Assembly (NCBI GenBank): GCA_947373225.1
Contig: CANBWX010000002.1
Location: forward strand, 4,970 to 68,969
From: Flavobacteriaceae bacterium
Lineage (GTDB): Bacteria; Bacteroidota; Bacteroidia; Flavobacteriales; Flavobacteriaceae
Reading direction: 5' to 3'
DNA length: 64,000 nucleotides
The notes under the pieces were generated by a model. It ran no database searches, was not told the DNA's origin, and saw only the letters and a program-made list of their open reading frames with translations. The stretch's first letter is position 1. Every line of letters begins with the position of its first letter. The position numbers were made by a program, and so were the translations under genes. Of the stretch, positions 1 to 31,473 are shown one piece after another.

Positions 1-463
1 ACGGAATATAATACAATTTATTAAAGTCTTTTTCATCAGAAAAATGCTCTCTTATTATTTTCGAATGATGAATATAAGGCAGGAATTTTGCGGCTATTCC
101 GTCAGCTCTTTTTTCGTTAGAAAGTCCCAAATCGGCTTCTAAAATCACGTTTTTTATTTTATATTTTCGTTCCGCCATTAGTTTTAGCATTAACGAAGCT
201 TCGAATAAATGAGAGCCGCTCATGCCGTAATTAAAGGTTTTTAGTCCTTTTTCTTCGAATATTTGGGACACAAAATGATTGTTGGCCCTGGAAGAACCCA
301 AGATGACAACATCATAATTTCGAGCACCAGAATTAAAAACATAATCTACTTTTCCGCGATTGTGAGATTGCAAATATGCTGCCGTATAGGCCCAATCCAG
401 CACCACTAAAAGCACTAGAATGGCTAGTATGATTTTGGCGATTAATTGTATAAAGTTCCTCAT
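1..463 (-). CDS. SGNH-hydrolase-like membrane-anchored protein, 5' part (runs off window start); likely partner of the MBOAT acyltransferase
   Basis: Manual translation from ATG at 463: MRNFIQLIAKIILAILVLLVVLDWAY...DVVILGSSRANNHF...FNYGMSG, open to position 1. N-terminal TM helix, GSS block I motif, TAATG overlap with the MBOAT stop. Not in the ORF track. Confidence 0.75.
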   Translation of the reverse strand, partial: MRNFIQLIAKIILAILVLLVVLDWAYTAAYLQSHNRGKVDYVFNSGARNYDVVILGSSRANNHFVSQIFEEKGLKTFNYGMSGSHLFEASLMLKLMAERKYKIKNVILEADLGLSNEKRADGIAAKFLPYIHHSKIIREHFSDEKDFNKLYYIP

Positions 464-1896
464 TAAAATTGAAAATAGATAAATTCTTTATAATCCGAAT
501 AGGTTCCCAAAGCGATAATGACTAGTAAACACAAAACTAGTTTCAGTCCACTGTATTTTCCCGAAATAGGTTCTATTTTAAAACGACTATTCCATTCGAT
601 CAGAATAAACGCAAGAACCAACAAAATTAATTCATAACTGTAGCGTTCGTTTACCAAATATTGCGATACAAAATTTCGATTGGTGACTATTCTTTCGAGA
701 TAATCAAAGGCAATTTTAATGGATTTTGCTCTGAAAAATACCCAAGCCACGCATGATAATGTAAAAGTGGCAAGAATACTGAAGAATACTTTTATGGAAT
801 TCAAATTCCAATGCAACTCTGCCGTTTCCATATTGTCGCGGTTGGTCCCTAATAATAATGAAGGTAGAAAGTACAAAGCATTGATAAATCCCCAAGCTAA
901 AAAAGTCCAATTGGCGCCATGCCAAAACCCGCTTACCACGAATATAATGAATACATTTCGAACCTGTTTCAACTTGCTTCCGCGGCTTCCGCCAAGGGGA
1001 ATGTATAAATAATCTCGAAACCAAGAGGATAGGGAAATATGCCAGCGTCGCCAGAATTCGGCAATATCTCTTGAGAAATAAGGATAATTGAAATTCCGTA
1101 ATAAATCCAGTCCGAAGAGTTTTGACATTCCCAAAGCCATATCCGAATAGCCTGAAAAGTCGCCATAAATTTGGAACGCAAAATACACCGCGCCCAGAAT
1201 CAATGACATGGAATTCATCGAAGTATAATTGTCGAAAATAGCATTGGCATAGGTTGCACAAGTATCGGCAATCACCACTTTTTTGACTAATCCCCAAATA
1301 ATTTGGTACACACCTTCTTTGGCTTTTTCGAAATCGAAGCTTCGTTTTATTTTAACTTGTGGCAATAAATGAGTGGCTCTTTCGATAGGACCAGCCACCA
1401 AAAGCGGAAAATAACTCACGAATAAAGCATAATCAACAACGTTTTTCTCGGCTTTTATCCTTTTGTAATAAATATCAATTACATACGATAATCCGTGAAA
1501 AGTATAGAAAGAAATTCCAACCGGAAGTATAACATTTAGCAAAAACGGACTAGAATGTAACCCGATAGAAGTTAAGGCTTGCGAAAAGGAAGCTGCGAAA
1601 AAATTATAATATTTGAACGCGCCCAGAAAACCTAGATTGACGATAATACTCAACCAAAACCAGAATTTTCGACTTCGTTCGTTGGTGCTTTTTTCTATTT
1701 GAATTCCCGTGAAATAATCTAATAAGGTCGAAAAAAGCAATAAAAATAGAAAACGCCAATCCCAACAAGAATAGAAATAATAACTCACCACAATTAGAAA
1801 AGTGTTTTGCGTGCTTTTATTTTTACTAAAAACAAACCAATACAGTACAAATACGATTGGTAAAAACAGAGCAAATTGTAAAGAGTTAAAAAACAT
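463..1896 (-). CDS. MBOAT family O-acyltransferase (AlgI/DltB-like)
   Basis: MFFNSLQF start, LPVGISFYTF, DFSGYSDMA, EFWRRWHISLSSWFRDYLYIPLGG and SGFWHGANWTF (catalytic His) motifs. Confidence 0.95.
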   Translation of the reverse strand: MFFNSLQFALFLPIVFVLYWFVFSKNKSTQNTFLIVVSYYFYSCWDWRFLFLLLFSTLLDYFTGIQIEKSTNERSRKFWFWLSIIVNLGFLGAFKYYNFFAASFSQALTSIGLHSSPFLLNVILPVGISFYTFHGLSYVIDIYYKRIKAEKNVVDYALFVSYFPLLVAGPIERATHLLPQVKIKRSFDFEKAKEGVYQIIWGLVKKVVIADTCATYANAIFDNYTSMNSMSLILGAVYFAFQIYGDFSGYSDMALGMSKLFGLDLLRNFNYPYFSRDIAEFWRRWHISLSSWFRDYLYIPLGGSRGSKLKQVRNVFIIFVVSGFWHGANWTFLAWGFINALYFLPSLLLGTNRDNMETAELHWNLNSIKVFFSILATFTLSCVAWVFFRAKSIKIAFDYLERIVTNRNFVSQYLVNERYSYELILLVLAFILIEWNSRFKIEPISGKYSGLKLVLCLLVIIALGTYSDYKEFIYFQF

Positions 1897-1986
1897 TTGT
1901 TGGAATCTATGGTTTCAAAGTGTTACAAATGTAATTCTTCGAAACCAATCTAACAAAAAAGCATTCGATTGTAAATGTTCGTTGAA

Positions 1987-2070
1987 TCAAAACTGATAAA
2001 TACCGTTTGGCGTCACGCAATAATCTAATTTTACGTCATTATCGAAAACATCCTTAATAACTGCTAACTT
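1987..2070 (-). pseudogene. Displaced duplicate of the 3' end of the 5-formyl-THF cyclo-ligase gene
   Basis: Translates as KLAVIKDVFDNDVKLDYCVTPNGIYQF*, versus ETIIEDVFENDVKLDYCVTPNTVYRF* at the end of the intact gene (3804-4367). In-frame stop immediately upstream and no start codon. Confidence 0.9.
2009..2040. repeat. 32-bp direct repeat, copy 1
   Basis: GGCGTCACGCAATAATCTAATTTTACGTCATT, identical to 3826-3857. Confidence 0.95.
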
Positions 2071-2075
2071 TTAAC

Positions 2076-2105
2076 AAAAAAAACCGCTCTATTGCTAGAA
2101 CGGTT
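2076..2105 (-). terminator. Intrinsic terminator of the T9SS cargo gene
   Basis: Minus strand: AACCGTTCT-loop-AGAGCGGTT followed by a T run. Confidence 0.7.
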
Positions 2106-2134
2106 ATTTTTAATTGTAAATGGTTAATTATCAA

Positions 2135-2998
2135 TTACTCTTTTATAATTTTTTGTGTTGCTGTTGCGTTACCCTCTGCGGTAGTATTTAGCATATAAAC
2201 TCCTTTTGGCAAAGCAGTTATATCTACCTGAACCTCATTGGCATTGGCAGTTTGGGTTTTTAGCAATTTGCCTTCTAATGAGTACACTTGCACCTGCCCA
2301 ATGTTTTGGGTGCTTTTTATAGTAACAATACCTGTGGTGGGGTTGGGGTATAGCTGATTTTTGGCAGTTGCCACTACCGATGGTGTAGCAAGCGTAGTGG
2401 TTACATAGGTCTTGAAGTATAAGTCATAGTCTACTTCATAAAAAAAATAAGGAGGAGGAAGACCATCAGAATAGTGACTATCTGGCTCAATAGCAGAACC
2501 ATTTGCATAGCTGCTAACATTGTTAGCGTATGCTACAGAACTGATATCGGCGGTAGCTAACATAAAAGCATATTTGGTACCTGCAGTTACGCTATAGGGA
2601 CTTGCAAAAGTAAAGGTGTAGTCGGTTGCGATGTTGCCCGACACCGTAGCCGTGGCACTTGCCAATACCGTGGTAGTAACAGGAATACCGCTTGAGTCAG
2701 TCGTATAAAGATTCATCGTGGTGGTGCCTCCCGCGCCTGAAGTGCTCAATTGTAGAATAATCTTTGATAAAGATCCTGTAAGCCCTGCAGTAAAGGTTTG
2801 ACCAAACAAAAAGCTCGAATATCCTGTATAGTCCACACTTGTAGTTTGTTGCTGGTCGAGGGTTTGTGCCTGTGCATTGGCAAAAAAGAAGAACGAACAA
2901 AGCAACAAGAGGCTTCTTGTCAACTTGTTGTTAATCAGTTTTTTAATAAAATGGGGGGGGGTAAAAACCGCTCCGCTAAAAGGTAAAAGATTTTTCAT
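2135..2998 (-). CDS. Secreted protein with T9SS type A C-terminal sorting domain
   Basis: Signal peptide ending FFFANAQAQ, Thr/Ser-rich beta domain (GQTFTAG...DLYFKTYV), CTD LYPNPTTG...LPKGVYML...QKIIKE. Confidence 0.9.
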   Translation of the reverse strand: MKNLLPFSGAVFTPPHFIKKLINNKLTRSLLLLCSFFFFANAQAQTLDQQQTTSVDYTGYSSFLFGQTFTAGLTGSLSKIILQLSTSGAGGTTTMNLYTTDSSGIPVTTTVLASATATVSGNIATDYTFTFASPYSVTAGTKYAFMLATADISSVAYANNVSSYANGSAIEPDSHYSDGLPPPYFFYEVDYDLYFKTYVTTTLATPSVVATAKNQLYPNPTTGIVTIKSTQNIGQVQVYSLEGKLLKTQTANANEVQVDITALPKGVYMLNTTAEGNATATQKIIKE

Positions 2999-3213
2999 TT
3001 TTTTTAAATTTAAAAATTATCCTACAAAGTGAAAACATTTTTTTGAGATACACAATAAGGGCTAACCTTTATTTTTATGCTAGGGGTAAAAATTTAATCT
3101 ACTACAAATGAAGCGTTTGTGTTTTTTTAGGTTTTTATTTTTTTAAAAAAATGAAAAATAAAACGTCGGAGGGTGGGGGAATTAGGGATTAAATAAATAA
3201 AACAACTTTTTTT

Positions 3214-3234
3214 CGTATTCTATACGTATATTTG
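3214..3234 (+). promoter_or_regulatory. -7 promoter box of the TA operon overlapped by palindromes (putative operator)
   Basis: TATATTTG at 3227-3234, palindrome TATACGTATA at 3221-3230, inverted repeat CGTAT-TCT-ATACG at 3214-3226. Confidence 0.6.
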
Positions 3235-3251
3235 CTGTAAATTTTACAGTT

Positions 3252-3503
3252 ATGTTACAGGCAAAAAACAGAAAAGAAATAACATTAGATGCTCAAACGC
3301 TTTCTATACTTCAATTCCAAGCAGAAAAACAAGGTAGAAAACTCAAAAATTATATGGAACAAGTGCTTAAAGAGCAAGCGAATAGTTTTGAATTGACCGA
3401 TGAATACAAAGCGATGATGGATGCAATGTTGGATAAACACGAAAAAGGAACATTAAAATATACCCCTTGGGGAGATGCCAAAAAAGAATTATTTAGCAAA
3501 TAA
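3252..3503 (+). CDS. Putative antitoxin (RHH-like N-terminus)
   Basis: 83 aa, directly upstream of the toxin with TAATG coupling; RKEITLD...LKNYMEQVL N-terminus and YTPWGDAKKEL tail typical of addiction-module components. Confidence 0.7.
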   Translation: MLQAKNRKEITLDAQTLSILQFQAEKQGRKLKNYMEQVLKEQANSFELTDEYKAMMDAMLDKHEKGTLKYTPWGDAKKELFSK

Positions 3504-3781
3504 TGCATTATTTTATTGAACTTTCAGACGAAGCAAAACTTGATATTAAAGAGGCTTTAGAGTATTATACTGCTATTTCTATATCATTAAAAGATAGATT
3601 TGAAGTTGCATTAACTAAATCTATTGAATTACTGTTTAAAAATCCGCTACATCATCAGGTACGATATAGAAAAATTCGTATTGTTTTTACAGAAGTATTT
3701 CCGTACGGAATACATTATATAGTTGAAAATGAGCATATATATGTTTTAAAAATACTACACACCAAAAGGTTTTTTAAATAA
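3503..3781 (+). CDS. RelE/ParE family toxin
   Basis: 92 aa; SDEAKLDIKEALEYY...NPLHH...IRIVFTEVFPYGIHY...VLKILHTKR pattern. Confidence 0.85.
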   Translation: MHYFIELSDEAKLDIKEALEYYTAISISLKDRFEVALTKSIELLFKNPLHHQVRYRKIRIVFTEVFPYGIHYIVENEHIYVLKILHTKRFFK

Positions 3782-3803
3782 AAAAACCGCCGAGAACTAG
3801 AGA

Positions 3804-4367
3804 TCAAAATCGATAAACGGTATTCGGCGTCACGCAATAATCTAATTTTACGTCATTCTCAAAAACATCTTCAATTATTGTTTCGGCTTCAAAAAAAGAA
3901 AGCCCAATTTTGATGGTTTCTGGCTTGCATTCTGTTAAGAATTTATCATAAAATCCTTTGCCATAACCAGCGCGATGTCCGGCTTTATCGAAAGCCAAAA
4001 GCGGTACAAAAACAACTTCAATTTTGCTGGTAGGAACTTCTAAACCATCAATAGGTTCGGGAATATTGTATTCGTTTTTCTTGATTTTGGTATTATCTGT
4101 CAAAAGAAAATGGGTCATATTCCGAGTTTCGAAATCACTTTTCGAAACAATAATTTCCTTGTCTTTTCCGGAAAGTAAATGCAAAATAAATTCGGTATTG
4201 ACTTCTTTGTGTTCCGTTATAGGTAAAAAAATATGAAAATAGTTTTTCTCCCAAATAGGAAGAGTCAGTACTTCATTGGCAATAGCCAGACTCATTTCCT
4301 CCAAATCATTTTCGGAAAGTTGGTTTCGAAAGGCTTTATATTTCTGCCTTAATTCTTTTTTAAGCAT
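3804..4367 (-). CDS. ygfA: 5-formyltetrahydrofolate cyclo-ligase
   Basis: KKELRQ start, IPEP, VPLLAFDKAGHRAGYGKGFYDKFL, DVKLDYCVTP. Confidence 0.95.
   Translation of the reverse strand: MLKKELRQKYKAFRNQLSENDLEEMSLAIANEVLTLPIWEKNYFHIFLPITEHKEVNTEFILHLLSGKDKEIIVSKSDFETRNMTHFLLTDNTKIKKNEYNIPEPIDGLEVPTSKIEVVFVPLLAFDKAGHRAGYGKGFYDKFLTECKPETIKIGLSFFEAETIIEDVFENDVKLDYCVTPNTVYRF
3826..3857. repeat. 32-bp direct repeat, copy 2 (inside the ygfA 3' end)
   Basis: Identical to 2009-2040. Confidence 0.95.
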
Positions 4368-5598
4368 GCGCCAAAGCTTTCAATTCGTTTATAAAAGCAG
4401 TCAAATGTTGCACTTCTACGTGATCCATAAGTACAATTTTGTACCATTTATTGCCTTCATTATGTTGCTCGGGAACCAAATCATATTTCTTGGCAATTTC
4501 CTCCGGAATATATTCCGAATGAATCGTCACAATATTCATGAAAGATTCACGGAAATAGTTGATGTTCAATTCGTCGAGTTCATGACACAAAAACTGAGTT
4601 CTCATTTGCAAAACACTCACTTTTTCGAACCAGCCATAAGGCCCATAAGTAAACAAAATCATCCAAACCGCGACGGCATTCGCCCCAGAACGACTTCCGC
4701 AAAGGGTAAGATCCATTCCTTCGACATACTCGGCTTCCTTGGTCAATACATTTTCAATCAGTCCTTTTCGGCAAATGAAAACGCCAGTTCCATAAGGAGA
4801 TTGCAACATTTTATGCGCATCGATCGTGATGGAACTTATCTTTGGGTTACTAAAATTAATTGTCGATTTCTGGTTGCTAAACGGATATACGAAACCGCCG
4901 TAAGCCCCGTCAATATGGAGTTTATAGTCTAAATTGTGTTTTTCTAAAACTTGGGTGTAATCATCGGGATTGTCAACAGATCCAAACATGGTAGTTCCCA
5001 TATTGGCAACAGCTATAAAATATTTTTTTCCGCTTTGTTTGGCGGCAATAATCGCTTGTTCCAATGCGGTTTTATCAATTTCTCTGTTTTCGTAAGCAAC
5101 AGGAATTTTCAACCAATCGAGCATCAAAAGATTGGCGCCTTTCGGGATAGAATAATGCGTGTCTTCGGAAGCTAAAATGGCAATTTCATCCAATTTGGCG
5201 CCCTTTTGATACATAAAAAAGTTGCGATACATCCAGATGGCTTGAATGTTGGCTTCGGTTCCGCCGGGCGAAATATAGCCGTCGATCGTTTCGGGTTTAG
5301 CTTTGAAAATATCAACCGCAATAACATTCAACACTTCACGCTCTATTTCCTGCGTTCCTTTGAAAGCACTTTCGGAAGTTCCCAAAGTGTGGCAGCCAAT
5401 ATGATTAGGATTTGCCACATAAGTTTGCAAAGTTGGTGCGTCTTTCAAAAAAGGTGCATCGTCATAAAACACTTTTCCGTCTAATTTTGAAGCGGGATAT
5501 CCAAGGGAAGCATCTTTAGAAAAATTTACATTTTCGTTTAATGCTTTTTGTATTCTATTTTTTCGTTCTTCTTGTGAGAGTTTTTTCCAATAAATCAT
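4360..5598 (-). CDS. Group II PLP-dependent amino-acid decarboxylase (substrate unknown)
   Basis: SPGGTEANIQA, THYSIPK, GTTMFGSVD, LHIDGAYGG, SITIDAHKM (PLP lysine). Confidence 0.9.
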   Translation of the reverse strand: MIYWKKLSQEERKNRIQKALNENVNFSKDASLGYPASKLDGKVFYDDAPFLKDAPTLQTYVANPNHIGCHTLGTSESAFKGTQEIEREVLNVIAVDIFKAKPETIDGYISPGGTEANIQAIWMYRNFFMYQKGAKLDEIAILASEDTHYSIPKGANLLMLDWLKIPVAYENREIDKTALEQAIIAAKQSGKKYFIAVANMGTTMFGSVDNPDDYTQVLEKHNLDYKLHIDGAYGGFVYPFSNQKSTINFSNPKISSITIDAHKMLQSPYGTGVFICRKGLIENVLTKEAEYVEGMDLTLCGSRSGANAVAVWMILFTYGPYGWFEKVSVLQMRTQFLCHELDELNINYFRESFMNIVTIHSEYIPEEIAKKYDLVPEQHNEGNKWYKIVLMDHVEVQHLTAFINELKALAHA

Positions 5599-5692
5599 TG
5601 CTAATTTTTTTTAGTTTCTTGAATGCAAAAGTTTTAGAAAATTATTTTTTCGAAAACTAAGCTAACAAATGTAATTCTTAAAATCCGGATTT

Positions 5693-6679
5693 TTATTTTT
5701 CTTCGCTATTGCTTACTAAATTCGACAGGTGATAAATCGCATCGCCTTGATACACAATTGGCGAATGATTGGCATTAATTACATAACCGTCATTTGGAGC
5801 TTTTACTTTTTGTTCAAATTTTCCAAAAGGATCCGTAATTGTGGCAAGCAAAGTTCCTTTTTTTACAAAACTACCAATGGTTTTGTAATCGTGTAATAAT
5901 CCGGAAGATTTGGCTCTAATCCATCGCGATTTTTCAATGTAAATTGATGGTAAATTTGGTTTTTCCGCGCTGTGTTTTGGGTCTAACATATTAAGGTGCG
6001 ACAATAATCGTTTGGCACCATTTACACCTTCGTCAGCAATTGACGTATTAATATCAAGTGATTTTCCACCTTCATAAAGTAACATTTTTACCTTTAATTT
6101 TTCGCTTGAATTTCTAAAAGAACCCAAAATATTTTTCGAATATAAAGTAAATGGTGCGTTAAAAACATCGGCTAGAAGTTTTAATTCGGCATCGTTTTGA
6201 ACCAGTCGGATTTGCGACGCATTGAATCTGCTGGCTCCACCGGAATGAAAATCGACAGCGTAATTTACAATTGGCATAATTTCGGTTAGAATATGAAAAG
6301 CAAATCGACTTGCCAAAGAGCCTTTTTTGCTTCCCGGAAAAACACGATTCAAGTCTCTTCCGTCAGGAAATTCTCTTGATCTATTGACAAACCCAAACAT
6401 GTTGATTATGGGAATGCAAATAATGGTTCCTGTTTTTGGCTTATTGATTTTTTTGGCAATGAGCTGTCGAACTATTTCAACACCATTTATTTCATCACCG
6501 TGAATTCCTGCCGAAAAAAGCACAACAGGTCCTTCAATTTTAGAACGTTGAACAATAATCGGAATTTTGAGTTTTGTGGTATTATGTAATTTGGCGATTT
6601 CCATATAAATGGTTTTGCTTTCGCCAGGCAAAATATCTTCGCCTAATATTGTGATGTGTTTTTGCGGATTTTTTGTCAT
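5693..6679 (-). CDS. Succinylglutamate desuccinylase/aspartoacylase family (M14-like) protein
   Basis: AGIHGDEING, DLNRVFPG, VDFHSG, YEGG motifs. Confidence 0.9.
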   Translation of the reverse strand: MTKNPQKHITILGEDILPGESKTIYMEIAKLHNTTKLKIPIIVQRSKIEGPVVLFSAGIHGDEINGVEIVRQLIAKKINKPKTGTIICIPIINMFGFVNRSREFPDGRDLNRVFPGSKKGSLASRFAFHILTEIMPIVNYAVDFHSGGASRFNASQIRLVQNDAELKLLADVFNAPFTLYSKNILGSFRNSSEKLKVKMLLYEGGKSLDINTSIADEGVNGAKRLLSHLNMLDPKHSAEKPNLPSIYIEKSRWIRAKSSGLLHDYKTIGSFVKKGTLLATITDPFGKFEQKVKAPNDGYVINANHSPIVYQGDAIYHLSNLVSNSEEK

Positions 6680-6804
6680 AATTACTTGAAAGTATAAAAG
6701 TAACCATAATTACGAATTCGTGCGTATTTTTTAGAAAAACTGTTTGCCAAAACAAATTGGAAAGTGAAATTTGTAATTAGGAATTTTCAGGCTAACTTTG
6801 TTTT

Positions 6805-8610
6805 ATGAATAAACCCACTCTCGAACTCCAAATTCAAACCTTGCCAGACGGTCCAGGCGTATATCAATATTATGATAAGGAAGGGAAGATTTTATATGTG
6901 GGCAAAGCCAAAAATTTAAAAAAGAGAGTTTCTTCGTATTTCAATAAAATTCATGATACGGCCAAAACTAATGTGCTGGTCAAGAAAATTGTAACCATAA
7001 AACACATCGTTGTTCCCACCGAAACCGATGCGCTTTTATTGGAAAACAACCTCATAAAAACACTGCAACCGCGCTATAATGTGTTGTTGCGTGACGACAA
7101 AAGTTATCCTTGGCTTTGCATCAAAAAAGAGCCTTTTTCCAGAATATTTTCGACTCGAAGAATGGTTAAAGATGGTTCGGAATATTTTGGTCCTTACACG
7201 AGTTTCAAGACTGTGAATACTATTTTGGAATTAATTCGGGAATTGTATCCGCTACGGACTTGCAATTTTGATTTGAGTAAATCGAATATTGAAAACAATA
7301 AATTCAAGGTTTGTCTCGAATATCATATTGGCAATTGCAAAGGGCCTTGCGAAGGTTATGAATCTTTAGAAAATTATCAAAAACAGGTGAACGCTATTCG
7401 TGAGATCCTGAAAGGAAATTTCAAGGAAAGTATGAAGGATTTTAGAAAATTAATGACAGATCTGGCAAAGGAAATGCACTTTGAAGAAGCTCAAAAAATA
7501 AAGGAGAAAATAGAAATTCTCGAAAATTACCAATCTCGTTCGACAATCGTAAACCCAAAAATCACGAATATTGATGTGTTTTCGATAGTTTCTGACGAAA
7601 GTTCCGCTTATGTAAATTTTCTTCAAATTTCCCACGGTTCGATTATACGTTCGCACACCATGGAAATCAAAAAGAAACTGGACGAAACCGACGAAGAATT
7701 ATTAGAACTGGCAATAATCGAACTTCGGGAGCGTTTTCAATTATTGTCAAAAGAAATAATAGTTCCTTTTGAAGTGGATTTGGGCGAAAATTTAAAAGTT
7801 TCCGTTCCGCAATTGGGTGATAAAAAGCAAATTTTGGATTTATCTATTCGCAACGCCAAATTTTACCGAATTGAACAATTAAAACAACTGCAAATTGTAG
7901 ATCCCGAAAGGCATTCGAATCGTATTATGGCACAAATGCAGAAAGATTTACGATTGCCGGTTGAACCGCGCCACATAGAATGTTTTGACAATTCGAATAT
8001 TCAAGGAACCAATCCCGTTGCGGCTTGCGTGGTTTTTAAGGATGGAAAACCAAGCAAAAAAGAGTATCGCCATTTTAATATAAAAACCGTCGAAGGCCCT
8101 GATGATTTTGCTTCGATGACCGAAGTTGTCTATCGTCGTTACAAACGATTATTAGACGAAAATCAGCCTTTGCCGCAGCTTATTATTATTGATGGTGGAA
8201 AAGGACAATTGTCATCGGCTTTGAAAAGCATTGACGAATTAGGATTGCGCGGTAAAATTGCCATTATTGGTATTGCCAAACGCTTGGAGGAATTGTTTTA
8301 TCCGGGCGATTCGATTCCGTTGTATTTAGACAAAAAATCCGAAACATTGAAGGTAATTCAGCAATTACGAAATGAAGCGCACCGTTTCGGAATCACTTTT
8401 CATCGGGATAAAAGAAGCAAATCGGCGCTTAATTCTTCGATTGAAAGTATTCCGGGAATTGGCGAAAAAACGATGTTGACACTAATTCAGCATTTTAAAA
8501 GTGTAAAAAGATTGAAATTAGCCACCGAAAAAGAAATTTCGGACGTTATTGGATTATCAAAAGCCAAAAAAATTACCGACTTTTACAAAACCAATAATGA
8601 GTCAAAATGA
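6805..8610 (+). CDS. uvrC: Excinuclease ABC subunit C
   Basis: GIY-YIG N-terminus (PGVYQY...YVGKAKNLKKRVSSYF), IECFDNS, IDGGKGQ, C-terminal HhH; TAACTTTG -7 box just upstream. Confidence 0.98.
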   Translation: MNKPTLELQIQTLPDGPGVYQYYDKEGKILYVGKAKNLKKRVSSYFNKIHDTAKTNVLVKKIVTIKHIVVPTETDALLLENNLIKTLQPRYNVLLRDDKSYPWLCIKKEPFSRIFSTRRMVKDGSEYFGPYTSFKTVNTILELIRELYPLRTCNFDLSKSNIENNKFKVCLEYHIGNCKGPCEGYESLENYQKQVNAIREILKGNFKESMKDFRKLMTDLAKEMHFEEAQKIKEKIEILENYQSRSTIVNPKITNIDVFSIVSDESSAYVNFLQISHGSIIRSHTMEIKKKLDETDEELLELAIIELRERFQLLSKEIIVPFEVDLGENLKVSVPQLGDKKQILDLSIRNAKFYRIEQLKQLQIVDPERHSNRIMAQMQKDLRLPVEPRHIECFDNSNIQGTNPVAACVVFKDGKPSKKEYRHFNIKTVEGPDDFASMTEVVYRRYKRLLDENQPLPQLIIIDGGKGQLSSALKSIDELGLRGKIAIIGIAKRLEELFYPGDSIPLYLDKKSETLKVIQQLRNEAHRFGITFHRDKRSKSALNSSIESIPGIGEKTMLTLIQHFKSVKRLKLATEKEISDVIGLSKAKKITDFYKTNNESK

Positions 8611-10808
8611 AAAAAATAGTATTATTCAGTTTTCTGTTTTTCACTTTCTTCACGTCGTTTTCTCAAGACGTTGTAAAAAAACCAAAAATTGGACTGGTTC
8701 TTAGTGGCGGAGGCGCAAAAGGTTTTGCGCATATTGGTGTTCTAAAAGTGCTGGAACAAGCTGGAGTAAAAATCGATTACATTGGCGGAACCAGTATGGG
8801 CGCAGTTGTTGGCGGACTTTATGCCACGGGTTATAGCGCCGCTCAAATTGATTCTATTTTTAAAACTACCAATTTCGACAAATTACTTCAAGATTTTATT
8901 CCTCGTTCGTCTAAGAATTTTTACGAAAAACGAAATGATGAATTGTATGCGGTTGTTTTACCTTTTAATAAATTCAAAATTGGAATTCCTGAAGCCTTGT
9001 CAAAAGGCTTGTATAATTACAATTTATTGAGTTCGATAACACGAGATGTAAGGTACGTTAGAGATTTTAATAAATTAAAAATTCCGTTTTTGTGCATTGC
9101 TACAAATATCGAAACAGGAGAAGAGGTTATTTTAAACAAAGGCAATTTAGCTCAGGATATGATTGCGAGTTCTGCATTTCCCTCTTTGTTTTCGCCTGTT
9201 GAAATGGATGGAAAACTTTTGATTGATGGTGGTGTGGCTAATAATTATCCCATAGAAGCAGTCCGAAAAATGGGTGCCGACATTATTATTGGTGTTGATG
9301 TTCAGGATGGTTTATTGAATAGAAAGGATCTAAAAGAAGCTACAAAAATATTAGGTCAAATTTCAGCTCTTCAAACTATTGAAAAAATGAAGATGAAAAT
9401 AGAGGATACCAATATTTACATAAAACCAGACATTAAAGATTATGGAGTTATTTCATTTGACAAAGGGCAAGAAATTATCCGAAAGGGGGAAGAAGCTGCT
9501 TTTTCAGTATATGAACAACTTAAAAAACTTGGAAATAAAGAGGGGTATGTGAAAAATAATCTGAAAGTATCCAATGATAGTCTTCAAATAAAATGTATAA
9601 ACATAAGCAGTTTAAATAATTATACACAATCCTATATAAAAGGTAAATTGCCTTTTAATGAAGGGAGTAAAATCAGTTATGAAGATTTAAGAGAAGGAAT
9701 CGATAATCTAAATGCTACTCAGAATTTTAGCATAATAAATTATTCATTTGAAGAAAATAATTCGATGGATGATTTAAAATTAAATTTGGTTGAAAACACG
9801 AATAGAACTTTTTTGAAATTTGGTTTGCATTATGATGACTTGTTTAAAAGTGGTGTTCTTATAAATCTAACTCAAAAAAAGACTTTTTTTAAAAATGACA
9901 TTGCCTCTTTAGACATCGTTCTTGGAGATAACATCAGGTATAATCTCGACTATTATATTGATAATGGTTTTTATTGGAGTTTTGGTTTTAAATCTCAATA
10001 TAACCAATTTAACAGAAATGTGGCTAAGGAAATAAGTAATTTAAACTTGGTCCCGTCGGGTTTAAATGCTATTAATATAGATTTTTCGGACTTCACCAAT
10101 CAGGCTTATTTTCAGACAATATTTGCTCAAAAATTTTTGATAGGATTAGGATCGGAGCTCAAATTATTACATATAAGTTCAGAAACCTTAGCGAATTCAA
10201 ATCCTATAATTGACAAGAGTAGCTATATAAGTTTGTTTGGGTATATGAAATATGATTCTTTTGACAACAAATATTTCCCTAAAAAAGGTTGGTACTTTTC
10301 AAGCAATATACAATCGTATTTGTTTTCTTCAAATTATACGGATAAGTTCAAGCCTTTTTCTATTGCAAAAGCTGATCTTGGGATTGCCAAAACAATTTTT
10401 AATAAGGCTACAATTAAGTTTCAAGCCGAAGGTGGACTTTCGTTTGGCAAACCAAGTATTTCGTTTTTTGATTTTGTTTTGGGCGGTTATGGGTATAATG
10501 CCATAAATAATTTTACACATTTTTATGGATATGATTTTTTAAGCTTGGCGGCAAATAGTTATTTGAAAGTTGCCGGAACACTGGATTATGAAATTTACAA
10601 AAAGAATCATGTGAATTTTTCAGCAAATTTTGCTAATGTTAAAGATGATCTTTTCCGATCCGTTAATTGGATTTCAGTTCCAAAATATTCAGGCTATGCC
10701 ATAGGTTACGGACTAGAAACAATAATTGGTCCAGTAGAGATTAAACATTCTTGGTCGCCAGAAACCTCGAAAGGATACACATGGGTTAGTGTTGGTTTTT
10801 GGTTTTAA
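8607..10808 (+). CDS. Patatin-like phospholipase with POTRA and C-terminal beta-barrel (PlpD/type Vd-like)
   Basis: Signal peptide, GGGAKG, GTSMG, DGG motifs; terminal VSVGFWF. Confidence 0.9.
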   Translation: MKKIVLFSFLFFTFFTSFSQDVVKKPKIGLVLSGGGAKGFAHIGVLKVLEQAGVKIDYIGGTSMGAVVGGLYATGYSAAQIDSIFKTTNFDKLLQDFIPRSSKNFYEKRNDELYAVVLPFNKFKIGIPEALSKGLYNYNLLSSITRDVRYVRDFNKLKIPFLCIATNIETGEEVILNKGNLAQDMIASSAFPSLFSPVEMDGKLLIDGGVANNYPIEAVRKMGADIIIGVDVQDGLLNRKDLKEATKILGQISALQTIEKMKMKIEDTNIYIKPDIKDYGVISFDKGQEIIRKGEEAAFSVYEQLKKLGNKEGYVKNNLKVSNDSLQIKCINISSLNNYTQSYIKGKLPFNEGSKISYEDLREGIDNLNATQNFSIINYSFEENNSMDDLKLNLVENTNRTFLKFGLHYDDLFKSGVLINLTQKKTFFKNDIASLDIVLGDNIRYNLDYYIDNGFYWSFGFKSQYNQFNRNVAKEISNLNLVPSGLNAINIDFSDFTNQAYFQTIFAQKFLIGLGSELKLLHISSETLANSNPIIDKSSYISLFGYMKYDSFDNKYFPKKGWYFSSNIQSYLFSSNYTDKFKPFSIAKADLGIAKTIFNKATIKFQAEGGLSFGKPSISFFDFVLGGYGYNAINNFTHFYGYDFLSLAANSYLKVAGTLDYEIYKKNHVNFSANFANVKDDLFRSVNWISVPKYSGYAIGYGLETIIGPVEIKHSWSPETSKGYTWVSVGFWF

Positions 10809-30867: not shown

Positions 30868-31473
30868 TTATTTTGCTAAAGCATATCTTCTAGCCACTTC
30901 ATCCCAGTTAATTACATTAAAAAAAGCTTCAATATAATCAGGTCTTCTGTTTTGATAATTCAAATAATAAGCGTGTTCCCAAACATCCATTCCTAAAATT
31001 GGAGTTCCGCCACAACCTATTCCGGGCATTAAAGTATTGTCTTGATTTGGAGTTCCACAAACTTCTAATTTTCCGTCTTTTACACATAACCAAGCCCATC
31101 CTGAACCAAATTGTGTAGCTCCAGCTTTAGCGAAAGCAGCTTTAAACGCATCAAAAGAACCAAAAGCACTTTCGATTGCAGCCAATAATTCTCCTGTTGG
31201 AAGTCCACCACCGTTTGGAGACATTACTGTCCAAAACAAACTGTGATTAAAATGTCCACCGCCATTGTTACGAACGGCCATGTTTTTCATATCCAAATTT
31301 TTTAAAATATCTTCGATGCTTTTTCCTTCTAAATCCGTTCCTGCAATAGCAGCGTTAACGTTTGTGATATAAGCATTATGATGTTTACTATGATGAATTT
31401 CCATCGTTCGCGCATCAATGTGTGGTTCTAATGCGTCATACGCATAAGGTAATTGTGGTAATTCAAAAGCCAT
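30868..31473 (-). CDS. sodA: Fe/Mn superoxide dismutase
   Basis: [10 protein letters not shown] start (31473), [28 protein letters not shown]; metal specificity not certain. Confidence 0.93.

What the first reader, a model, noticed from the sequence alone, without database searches (positions are those of the whole stretch)
1987..3857. Integrase-less 1.8 kb islet bounded by a duplicated, recoded 3' end of ygfA
Seen: the last ~25 codons of the 5-formyl-THF cyclo-ligase gene occur twice (1987-~2061 and 3804-~3878). They share a 32-bp identical core and have protein-conserving divergence on both sides. Between the copies are only a T9SS cargo gene and a TA pair. This is the classic signature of an element that integrates into a gene's 3' end and restores it with its own copy, as at tRNA or housekeeping att sites (established). 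Here the target is a protein-coding folate gene and no recombinase is present. The islet is therefore either mobilised in trans, a remnant of a larger element, or a product of homology-facilitated uptake from another Flavobacterium (inference).
Basis: partly seen in the sequence, partly recalled or inferred. Interest (0 to 1): 0.7.

Follow-up and report, generated by a model that had tools for sequence, protein, structure and literature searches.

The report
Toxin-antitoxin insertion with duplicated gene end
A toxin-antitoxin pair and an orphan secreted-protein gene sit just after a folate gene, and a dead second copy of that gene's last 26 codons lies beyond them; this is a fixed, recombinase-free insertion scar of a kind so far described for restriction-modification genes, not an active mobile element.

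Summary
The last 26 codons of ygfA occur twice (3804-3881 on the gene, 1987-2064 as a relic), 63/78 identical, with a 32-nt identical core. Between them lie only a T9SS-sorted protein gene and a ParE-type toxin-antitoxin (TA) pair.

It is not an artefact: at least 10 independently assembled conspecific contigs show the same layout. No empty site, other cargo or integrase-bearing version turned up in about 460 genomes of the genus. No recombinase lies within 16 kb. The core is absent from viral, genome and metagenome collections.

The core is not a fixed att core. Two conspecific strains carry a different patch of relic-type bases in the live gene, which indicates gene conversion between the copies.

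The same architecture recurs:
- Two other TA pairs in this genome (YoeB, HigBA) are flanked by 65- and 209-nt duplications of the neighbouring gene's end.
- A homologue of this same ParE cassette in another species sits behind a different gene, with 114 nt of that gene's end duplicated.

The best reading is an "insertion with long target duplication" (Nobusato 2000; Furuta 2010), probably guided by homology. The locus is also a synteny breakpoint. I rate it a new variant of a known kind, of moderate interest.

The parts
3804..4367 (-). Intact 5-formyltetrahydrofolate cyclo-ligase gene (ygfA/MTHFS), 187 aa. It is 85-90% identical to orthologues of the closest clade along its whole length.
3804..3881 (-). 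Live copy of the repeat (last 25 codons plus stop of ygfA). The insert starts immediately after the stop codon.
1987..2064 (-). Dead copy (relic) of the ygfA 3' end. It has 25 codons plus stop, no start codon, and stop codons just upstream in frame.
2009..2040 (.). 32-nt core identical to 3826-3857 in this strain. In strains L052/L056 the identical run is 41 nt and is shifted.
3826..3857 (.). Core copy inside the live gene. Positions 3828, 3858 and 3861 are polymorphic between strains, with relic-type bases in alternative patches.
3503..3781 (+). ParE/RelE-superfamily toxin gene (92 aa). It is convergent with ygfA, and the two stop codons are 22 nt apart.
   Evidence: PF05016, 38.9 bits, cut-off 23
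3252..3503 (+). Antitoxin candidate (83 aa) with no family match. Its stop overlaps the toxin start (ATGA).
   Evidence: position and conservation with the toxin in 6 other genomes
3222..3251 (+). Leader of the TA cassette (TATACGTATA palindrome, TATATTTG box). The cassette conserved across species runs from about 3215 to about 3787.
2135..2998 (-). Orphan T9SS-sorted protein gene (287 aa as listed). GC is 41.9% against 33.6% for the genome. The best homologue outside the species is 42% identical (Spirosoma).
2082..2105 (-). Intrinsic terminator of the T9SS gene (10-bp stem plus T-run). It sits next to the relic's upstream edge.
1897..1986 (.). Junction to the native MBOAT gene. Positions 1922-1960 resemble the MBOAT upstream region of relative G287. 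Positions 1955-1996 (+) could encode an lspA-like tail (NKKAF...), but this is weak.
463..1896 (-). MBOAT O-acyltransferase gene, a native core gene (86-89% aa in the closest clade). Its ancestral upstream neighbour is a different gene (own contig C9:3011-4402).

Best explanation
[quoted passage not shown] The last 78 nt of ygfA ended up on both sides of the insert: a live copy on the gene and a dead relic at the far edge.

I think the most likely route was homology-guided capture of foreign DNA by the host's general recombination, in one of two forms. In the first, a single Campbell-type crossover integrated a circularised fragment. In the second, a one-sided homologous exchange was combined with an illegitimate join at the other end. 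In either form the ygfA 3' end served as the anchor, and the donor already carried the cassette right after its own ygfA stop codon.

No dedicated integrase or att site is involved, and nothing shows that the unit still moves. Since the insertion, the two copies have exchanged short patches by gene conversion. That explains the perfectly identical core and has changed one residue (E to D) of the live enzyme in some strains. The TA pair probably helped the insert to persist by addiction.

Shown: the anatomy, fixation in the species, absence of a recombinase, recurrence of the architecture, and the strain polymorphism. Inferred: the recombination route, the foreign origin, and the direction of conversion.

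Layered confidence: recombinase-free insertion scar with long duplication, about 0.8; homology-guided route, about 0.5.
For: - The repeat and cargo are as described.
- At least 10 conspecific contigs from several assemblies are 99.9% identical across the whole structure.
- There is one copy in the genome, and none of its junction pieces is repeated elsewhere.
- No recombinase lies in the insert or in the 16 kb beyond it, which hold MBOAT, GFO_IDH, AraC, UmuCD and gal genes.
- The core is absent from viral contigs, genome contigs and metagenome contigs.
- No second ygfA 3' fragment was found in 60 + 400 genus genomes.
- Strains L052/L056 carry relic-type TTC GAT where this strain has TTT GAG, and ACA where this strain has relic-type ACG. 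These are alternative conversion patches.
- The same architecture occurs elsewhere in this genome: LigB gene, then DUF2683/YoeB pair, then a 65-nt relic (95% identical); GlmM-like gene, then HigA/HigB and a truncated UDG gene, then a 209-nt relic (93% identical). Three of 5 evaluable RelE/ParE-superfamily loci have such repeats.
- In G137 a 78%-identical copy of this ParE cassette sits in the same orientation behind a different gene. That gene's last 114 nt are duplicated at 84% identity, with 10-11 of 15 in-frame differences at third codon positions.
- The repeat ends exactly at the stop codon in ygfA, LigB and G137. This is expected if homology between donor and recipient stops there.
- The truncated UDG gene at the far junction in C22 looks like an illegitimate join.
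- The class is described for RM systems, with 46-423-bp repeats, no mobility genes and links to rearrangements.
Against: - No donor arrangement (ygfA followed by this TA pair or T9SS gene) was found in any other genome.
- No empty site exists for a direct before/after comparison, because the downstream neighbour also changed in this species.
- Which copy is native is unresolved. A one-sided exchange predicts a native relic, yet the live copy looks more like the closest clade in both arms. That rests on few residues, and the relic may simply have decayed.
- In ygfA itself the codon-position bias is not significant.
- A staggered-break fill-in followed by decay and conversion would give the same picture.
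- The TA cassette has the same sharp limits in four different contexts, which hints at a more precise mechanism than capture of a random fragment.
Confidence: 0.55

Rival explanations
1. In-situ long target duplication. A break with widely staggered nicks (at codon 162 and just after the stop codon) was filled in around captured foreign DNA, giving two identical 78-nt copies. The distal copy then decayed neutrally at its edges while gene conversion kept the centre identical.
For: This is the implicit model for the RM cases. The C11 and C22 repeats are 93-95% identical, like young duplications. In ygfA the differences are not significantly biased to third codon positions. Conversion is seen in the population. 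The relic looks less clade-like than the gene, as decay would predict.
Against: The repeat ends exactly at the stop codon in three independent cases, which random nicks do not explain. In G137 the differences are mostly synonymous, so both copies diverged as working genes; later allelic replacement of the live gene could mimic this. Divergence of 29-36% in the arms needs a long time, yet the structure is species-specific.
Confidence: 0.2
2. Remnant of, or passenger on, a site-specific integrative element. An integrase (since lost, or acting in trans) recombined an attP carrying a ygfA 3' mimic with the 32-nt core in ygfA, restoring the gene as tRNA-targeting islands do.
For: Direct repeats with an identical core and diverged arms flank foreign cargo that includes a TA pair. 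A large serine recombinase exists elsewhere in the genome (C66:13496-15073).
Against: No recombinase lies in or within 16 kb of the insert. There was no other occupancy of this site in about 460 genus genomes and no attP-like core in viral contigs. The core is not constant between strains. The live gene's 3' arm looks native rather than element-derived (weak). Analogous repeats of 65, 114 and 209 nt at other genes, with different TA families and one truncated gene at the far junction, do not fit one site-specific system.
Confidence: 0.12
3. By-product of the chromosomal rearrangement. The relic is a leftover piece of a ygfA/lspA junction, copied or trapped when the segment carrying MBOAT was joined to ygfA (template switching or break-induced repair). 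The TA and T9SS genes arrived separately.
For: In at least 20 of 29 relatives, and in the closest clade, ygfA is followed by convergent lspA. MBOAT is preceded by another gene and lies 466 kb away in complete genome G278. The relic sits exactly at this breakpoint. The GlmM/HigBA case is also at a synteny break. A possible lspA-like tail adjoins the relic. The RM literature links such insertions to rearrangements.
Against: The relic differs from the live copy at 15 of 78 positions, so it is not a recent copy of it. The genome's own lspA has an intact, clade-typical tail, so the 'lspA tail' at the relic is at best foreign. The G137 and LigB cases show the same repeats without needing a large rearrangement.
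Confidence: 0.1

Closest known systems
Insertion with long target duplication of restriction-modification gene complexes (Nobusato et al. 2000, Gene 259:99; Furuta, Abe & Kobayashi 2010, PMC2853133)
   Same: A small insert (<20 kb) carries an addiction-type module and no transposase or integrase. It is flanked by direct repeats of tens to hundreds of bp that are single-copy target sequence, sometimes overlapping a gene's 3' end. The repeat copies are 93-100% identical in those cases. The insertions are associated with genome rearrangements. The mechanism is unknown.
   Different: The cargo here is a type II TA pair plus a T9SS-sorted protein gene, not an RM system. The repeat copies are far more diverged (81%) and carry a converted core. 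No empty-site genome is available. The host is a Flavobacterium-like genus that is not among the listed taxa.
Integrative islands that target the 3' end of a gene and restore it (tRNA/tmRNA or protein-gene att sites; IMEs and CIMEs)
   Same: A gene end is duplicated on both sides of foreign cargo, the gene stays intact, and a TA pair is among the cargo.
   Different: There is no recombinase, no recurrence of the site in relatives, a core that varies between strains, and repeat lengths and targets that differ from case to case in the same genome.
Homology-facilitated illegitimate recombination and Campbell-type single-crossover integration (from my own knowledge: de Vries & Wackernagel 2002; Prudhomme et al. 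2002)
   Same: A one-sided homologous anchor in a conserved gene brings in adjacent foreign DNA. The far end is joined at an arbitrary point (a truncated UDG gene in the C22 case). A single crossover with a circle duplicates the anchor.
   Different: This has been shown only in the laboratory for transformable species. Here it is inferred from sequence. The anchor is short and diverged, and natural competence of this organism is unknown.
ParE/RelE-superfamily type II toxin-antitoxin modules
   Same: The toxin matches PF05016 above cut-off. A small upstream gene overlaps it by ATGA. A palindromic operator-like leader precedes the pair.
   Different: The antitoxin matches no Pfam or NCBIfam model, and activity is untested.

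Membership tests
Site-specific integrative element (att-flanked island, IME/CIME) | Recombinase gene inside or beside the element | tested here: not met
   ORFs and Pfam of 1-8000. The 16 kb beyond the relic in conspecific contigs hold no integrase or transposase.
Site-specific integrative element (att-flanked island, IME/CIME) | Identical att core at both ends, constant within the population | tested here: inconclusive
   The core is 32 nt identical in this strain. Strains L052/L056 break it at 3828 and extend identity to 41 nt on the other side.
Site-specific integrative element (att-flanked island, IME/CIME) | The same site is empty, or occupied by other cargo or integrase-bearing versions, in relatives | tested here: not met
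   There is one ygfA 3' end per genome in 60 relatives and 400 genus genomes. The only other duplication is a 5' one in G023.
Site-specific integrative element (att-flanked island, IME/CIME) | Excised circle or attP form | not testable with these tools
The core is absent from viral contigs.
Insertion with long target duplication (Nobusato 2000; Furuta 2010) | Insert <20 kb flanked by direct repeats >30 bp that are otherwise single-copy | tested here: met
   A 1.74-kb insert with 78-nt repeats and no other copy in the genome.
Insertion with long target duplication (Nobusato 2000; Furuta 2010) | No mobility-related gene in or next to the insert | tested here: met
Insertion with long target duplication (Nobusato 2000; Furuta 2010) | Related genome with the target present once and both flanks aligned (empty site) | tested here: inconclusive
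   Relatives have a single ygfA end, but their downstream flank is lspA, not MBOAT. All conspecific contigs carry the insert.
Insertion with long target duplication (Nobusato 2000; Furuta 2010) | Cargo is a restriction-modification system | tested here: not met
   The cargo is a ParE-type TA pair plus a T9SS-sorted protein gene. I therefore file it as a variant, not a member in the strict sense.
Type II TA, ParE/RelE superfamily | Toxin matches the family model above its curated cut-off | tested here: met
   PF05016, 38.9 bits against a cut-off of 23; also found by the whole-genome scan.
Type II TA, ParE/RelE superfamily | Cognate antitoxin of a known family encoded directly upstream | tested here: inconclusive
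   An 83-aa ORF overlaps the toxin start and is conserved with the toxin in other genomes. It has no Pfam or NCBIfam match.
T9SS cargo protein | C-terminal type A sorting domain above cut-off | tested here: met
   PF18962, 56.9 bits (cut-off 27); TIGR04183, 54.2 bits (cut-off 23).
Homology-guided capture (Campbell-type or HFIR) | Dependence on RecA and on a homologous anchor; illegitimate join at the far end | not testable with these tools
   There are only indirect signs. The repeat ends at the stop codon in three cases. There is a truncated UDG gene at the far junction in C22. G137 shows synonymous-biased divergence.

The most novel reading that the evidence does not exclude
Type II TA cassettes in this genus, and perhaps widely, may spread without any recombinase of their own by a cycle already proposed, but never shown, for RM systems. 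In that cycle a cassette enters behind a conserved gene together with a copy of that gene's end. It is held there by addiction. It can loop out through the flanking repeats and re-enter any genome that shares the gene end. The dead copy then acts as a donor for gene conversion that alters the C-terminus of the housekeeping enzyme.
Probability: 0.2. Interest if true: 0.65.

Novelty: new variant of a known kind. Interest (0 to 1): 0.42.

Why it matters
How chromosomal TA modules move between genomes when they are not on a plasmid, phage or transposon is still poorly explained. This report adds four independent cases, three in one genome and one in a relative. In each, a TA pair is bracketed by a long duplication of the neighbouring gene's end. 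The pattern was known for restriction-modification systems, the other large class of addiction modules, so the two classes may share a recombinase-free entry route. It also gives a simple, searchable signature: the repeat ends at the stop codon and the relic lies beyond the cassette.

The strain polymorphism shows that such relics are not inert, because they rewrite the live gene by conversion. For annotation, the practical message is that a duplicated gene end with an identical core is not enough to call an integrative element.

Tried and rejected
- **Assembly artefact.** Rejected: at least 10 conspecific contigs from different assemblies agree, and the two copies differ in their arms.
- **Core identical by conservation alone.** Rejected: relatives match at 18-28 of 32 positions, and no other species among 185,579 has the exact 32-mer.
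- **Donor or empty site.** The DNA search with the islet in 400 genus genomes found only TA homologues at other loci and nothing for the T9SS gene. The protein search found no close T9SS homologue. The search with the relic found no better match than the genome's own gene. Exact-core scans of viral, genome and metagenome collections were empty.
- **Relic as part of an RNA gene.** No Rfam hit in 1-9000 at E <= 0.1.
- **Repeated intergenic element at the junctions.** None found.
- **ygfA-relic-MBOAT adjacency as ancestral or imported.** MBOAT is a native core gene with a different upstream neighbour in the clade, and no relative has a ygfA fragment there.
- **Relic's downstream 42 nt as the native lspA tail.** Rejected, because the genome's own lspA keeps the clade-typical tail. 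A foreign tail remains possible but weak.
- **Deciding from short arms which copy is native.** The identities are nearly equal.
- **Earlier scan notes for this genome.** They did not bear on this locus.
Full report
**Observation.** ygfA (5-formyltetrahydrofolate cyclo-ligase; PF01812 and TIGR02727 above cut-off) lies at 3804-4367 on the minus strand. Its last 25 codons plus stop recur at 1987-2064, 1817 nt away. Identity is 63/78, with a 32-nt block (2009-2040 = 3826-3857) that is identical. The relic has no start codon, and stop codons lie just upstream in frame.

Between the copies are three genes:
- a gene for a protein with a T9SS C-terminal sorting domain (2135-2998, -), with its own terminator at 2082-2105;
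- an 83-aa antitoxin candidate (3252-3503, +);
- a ParE-family toxin gene (3503-3781, +).

The match is far beyond chance (E = 2.9e-7 and 3.9e-13). Across 40 relatives the core matches the own sequence at only 18-28 of 32 positions, and the exact 32-mer occurs in no other species' representative genome.

**Is it real, and does it move?** The exact ygfA protein and a neighbouring protein were traced to 11 and 20 public contigs of the same species (NCBI MAGs, an ENA assembly, Logan contigs). Every contig long enough shows ygfA, TA, T9SS gene, relic and MBOAT at 99.9% identity. This rules out an assembly artefact, and it also gives no sign of presence/absence polymorphism.

The genome holds one copy. 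The 16 kb beyond the relic carry MBOAT, a 299-aa gene, GFO_IDH, a small T9SS protein, AraC, UmuC/UmuD and gal genes, with no recombinase. The core is absent from viral contigs and JGI metagenome contigs.

**Context in relatives.** In at least 20 of 29 genus relatives, and in the closest clade (G278, G126, G287), ygfA is followed by a convergent lspA-like gene, then a small zinc-finger gene and ileS. In this genome those genes lie on another contig (C66). MBOAT is a native core gene (86-89% aa identity in the closest clade). There its upstream neighbour is the homologue of C9:3011-4402, and in the complete genome G278 it lies 466 kb from ygfA. So the relic sits exactly on a species-specific synteny breakpoint.

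No relative has a second ygfA 3' fragment and none has a ygfA fragment upstream of MBOAT. The T9SS gene is an orphan. It has no DNA homologue in 400 genus genomes, its best protein match is 42% identical (Spirosoma), and its GC is 41.9% against 33.6% for the genome. The TA pair has homologues (65-86% nt) in six other species, always at other loci. In the nearest species, G004, it lies 32 kb from ygfA.

**The core is not a fixed att core.** Two conspecific contigs (L052, L056) differ from this strain at 3828, 3858 and 3861 inside the live copy.
- At 3858 and 3861 they carry the relic's bases (TTC GAT instead of TTT GAG, which changes Glu to Asp).
- At 3828 they carry ACA, where this strain has the relic's ACG.

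Sister species have TTT GAA/GAG and ACA/ACT. Each haplotype therefore appears to have received a different short patch from the relic. The identical run is 32 nt here and 41 nt there. Ectopic gene conversion between the copies explains the perfect core without invoking a crossover site.

**Which copy is native?** The live gene is 85-90% identical to the clade along its length, like its neighbours dec (84-91%) and uvrC (92-94%). Its C-terminus (IIEDVFEND...VYRF) matches G329 and G278. The relic (VIKDVFDND...GIYQF) looks more distant. This speaks against the chimeric copies that a crossover in the core would give, but it rests on few residues, and decay of the relic would look the same. In the arms, conserved codons carry 1 change in 15 nt against 14 in 30 nt for variable codons. 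The codon-position bias is not significant. I could not decide whether the relic is a foreign allele or a decayed native copy.

**The architecture recurs.** A self-comparison of the genome for nearby direct repeats, followed by Pfam, found two further TA cases:
- **C11.** A LigB-family gene, a DUF2683/YoeB pair, then a 65-nt relic of the LigB 3' end (95% identical). The two copies end in KIV* and KIM*, and both endings occur among relatives.
- **C22.** A GlmM-like gene with its terminator, a HigA/HigB pair and a truncated UDG gene, then a 209-nt relic of terminator plus gene end (93% identical). This locus is also at a synteny break.

Both are present in all conspecific contigs. Three of the five evaluable RelE/ParE-superfamily loci of the genome have such repeats. 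Similar repeats flank a porin-like gene (C60), an HD-domain gene (C30) and a 3.5-kb lipoprotein islet (C123, 47 nt, 100% identical).

The G137 case is the most informative. A 78%-identical copy of this same ParE cassette sits in the same orientation, 8 nt after the stop codon of an unrelated 321-aa gene. That gene's last 114 nt are repeated beyond the cassette at 84% identity, followed by a terminator. Ten to eleven of the 15 in-frame differences fall at third codon positions. Species G023 has a mirror image at the 5' end of ygfA: a 46-codon relic, a 160-aa ORF, then the intact gene.

In ygfA, LigB and G137 the repeat ends exactly at the stop codon.

**Mechanism.** One site-specific system cannot account for different target genes, different TA families, repeat lengths of 47-209 nt and a truncated gene at one far junction. 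These features match 'insertion with long target duplication', described for restriction-modification systems. That class has repeats of 46-423 bp, no mobility genes, some repeats that overlap gene 3' ends, links to rearrangements, and an unknown mechanism.

Within that class I favour homology-guided capture. If the donor already had the cassette right after the stop codon, homology between donor and recipient ends at the stop codon. That gives the observed 3' limit of the repeat. The 5' limit is where the fragment ended or was joined illegitimately. A single crossover with a circle, or a one-sided exchange with a join inside the anchor, duplicates the anchor.

The main rival is a staggered break filled in around captured DNA, followed by decay and conversion. 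It fits the young, nearly identical repeats, but not the stop-codon boundaries or the synonymous-biased divergence in G137. One point stays unexplained: the TA cassette has the same sharp limits in four unrelated contexts, from a TATACGTATA palindrome 28 nt before the antitoxin ATG to the toxin stop. That hints at something more precise than capture of a random fragment.

**Verdict.** The feature is a fixed scar, a new variant (TA cargo, Flavobacterium-like host, converted core) of a known but mechanistically unresolved kind. Interest is moderate. It rests on the recurrence with TA modules and on the relic-to-gene conversion.

Noticed in passing
own genome contig C11:24176-24875 (outside the window): The order is LigB-family gene, DUF2683/YoeB TA pair, 65-nt relic of the LigB 3' end (95% identical), then an AAA_21/RloB pair before kdsB. 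Relatives G020 and G015 have LigB directly followed by kdsB.
   Followed up: partly
own genome contig C22:4406-5902 (outside the window): A 209-nt duplication (93% identical) of the terminator plus 3' end of a GlmM-like gene brackets a HigA/HigB pair and a truncated UDG gene. Downstream synteny differs from all 22 relatives examined.
   Followed up: partly
L050 (G137:C28) 9833-10658: A homologue of the window's ParE cassette is flanked by a 114-nt duplication of the 3' end of an unrelated 321-aa gene. The differences are mostly synonymous, and the relic carries a 2-nt deletion and keeps the terminator.
   Followed up: partly
L023 (G023:C5), locus about 620-1500 in ygfA orientation: This is a mirror-image case. 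A 46-codon 5' relic of ygfA is still overlapping the decarboxylase stop, followed by an AT-rich stretch, a 160-aa ORF and then the intact ygfA.
   Followed up: partly
own genome C60:6513-7480, C30:1964-2769, C123:1470-5065, C15:18802-19666: Further small inserts (a porin-like gene, an HD-domain gene, a 3.5-kb lipoprotein/XRE islet, a 224-aa ORF) are flanked by 47-67-nt direct repeats of the neighbouring gene end or terminator.
   Followed up: no
window 2951-2959: A G9 run (C9 on the coding strand, codons TPPH) lies near the 5' end of the T9SS gene. It is G8 in strain L052, which shifts the frame and moves the called start (257 aa). This may be slipped-strand on/off switching, or the real start may lie downstream.
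   Followed up: no
window 3190: Most conspecific contigs have four extra A's in the AT-rich spacer between the T9SS gene and the antitoxin gene, which are transcribed divergently.
   Followed up: no
window 2990-3008 and 3141-3159: A 19-nt inverted repeat (95%) copies the start region of the T9SS gene (TTTAAAAAAAATGAAAAAT) in the opposite direction, heading a 13-codon mini-ORF.
   Followed up: no
window 3222-3251 and L048, L050, L051: The ParE cassette has the same sharp limits in four species and four contexts. It starts at a TATACGTATA palindrome about 28 nt before the antitoxin ATG and ends at the toxin stop codon, with no terminal repeats.
   Followed up: partly
window 5693-6679: The AstE/AspA-like gene between the decarboxylase gene and uvrC is absent from the closest clade (G278, G126, G287, G329) but present in more distant genus members. 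The uvrC-ygfA interval is indel-prone across the genus.
   Followed up: no
window 1955-1996 (+): A reading frame ends NKKAFDCKCSLNQN* and overlaps the relic's stop by 10 nt. It resembles the conserved C-terminal motif (FNKKAFH...) of the lspA-like gene that follows ygfA in most relatives. The genome's own lspA tail is intact elsewhere, so this is either a foreign scrap or chance.
   Followed up: partly
L118 (G337:C24) and L115 (G220:C59): Two members of the closest clade also lack lspA downstream of ygfA. G337 has a homologue of window 30871-31209 there, and G220 has homologues of own contig C62. The ygfA 3' junction is a repeated rearrangement point in the genus.
   Followed up: no
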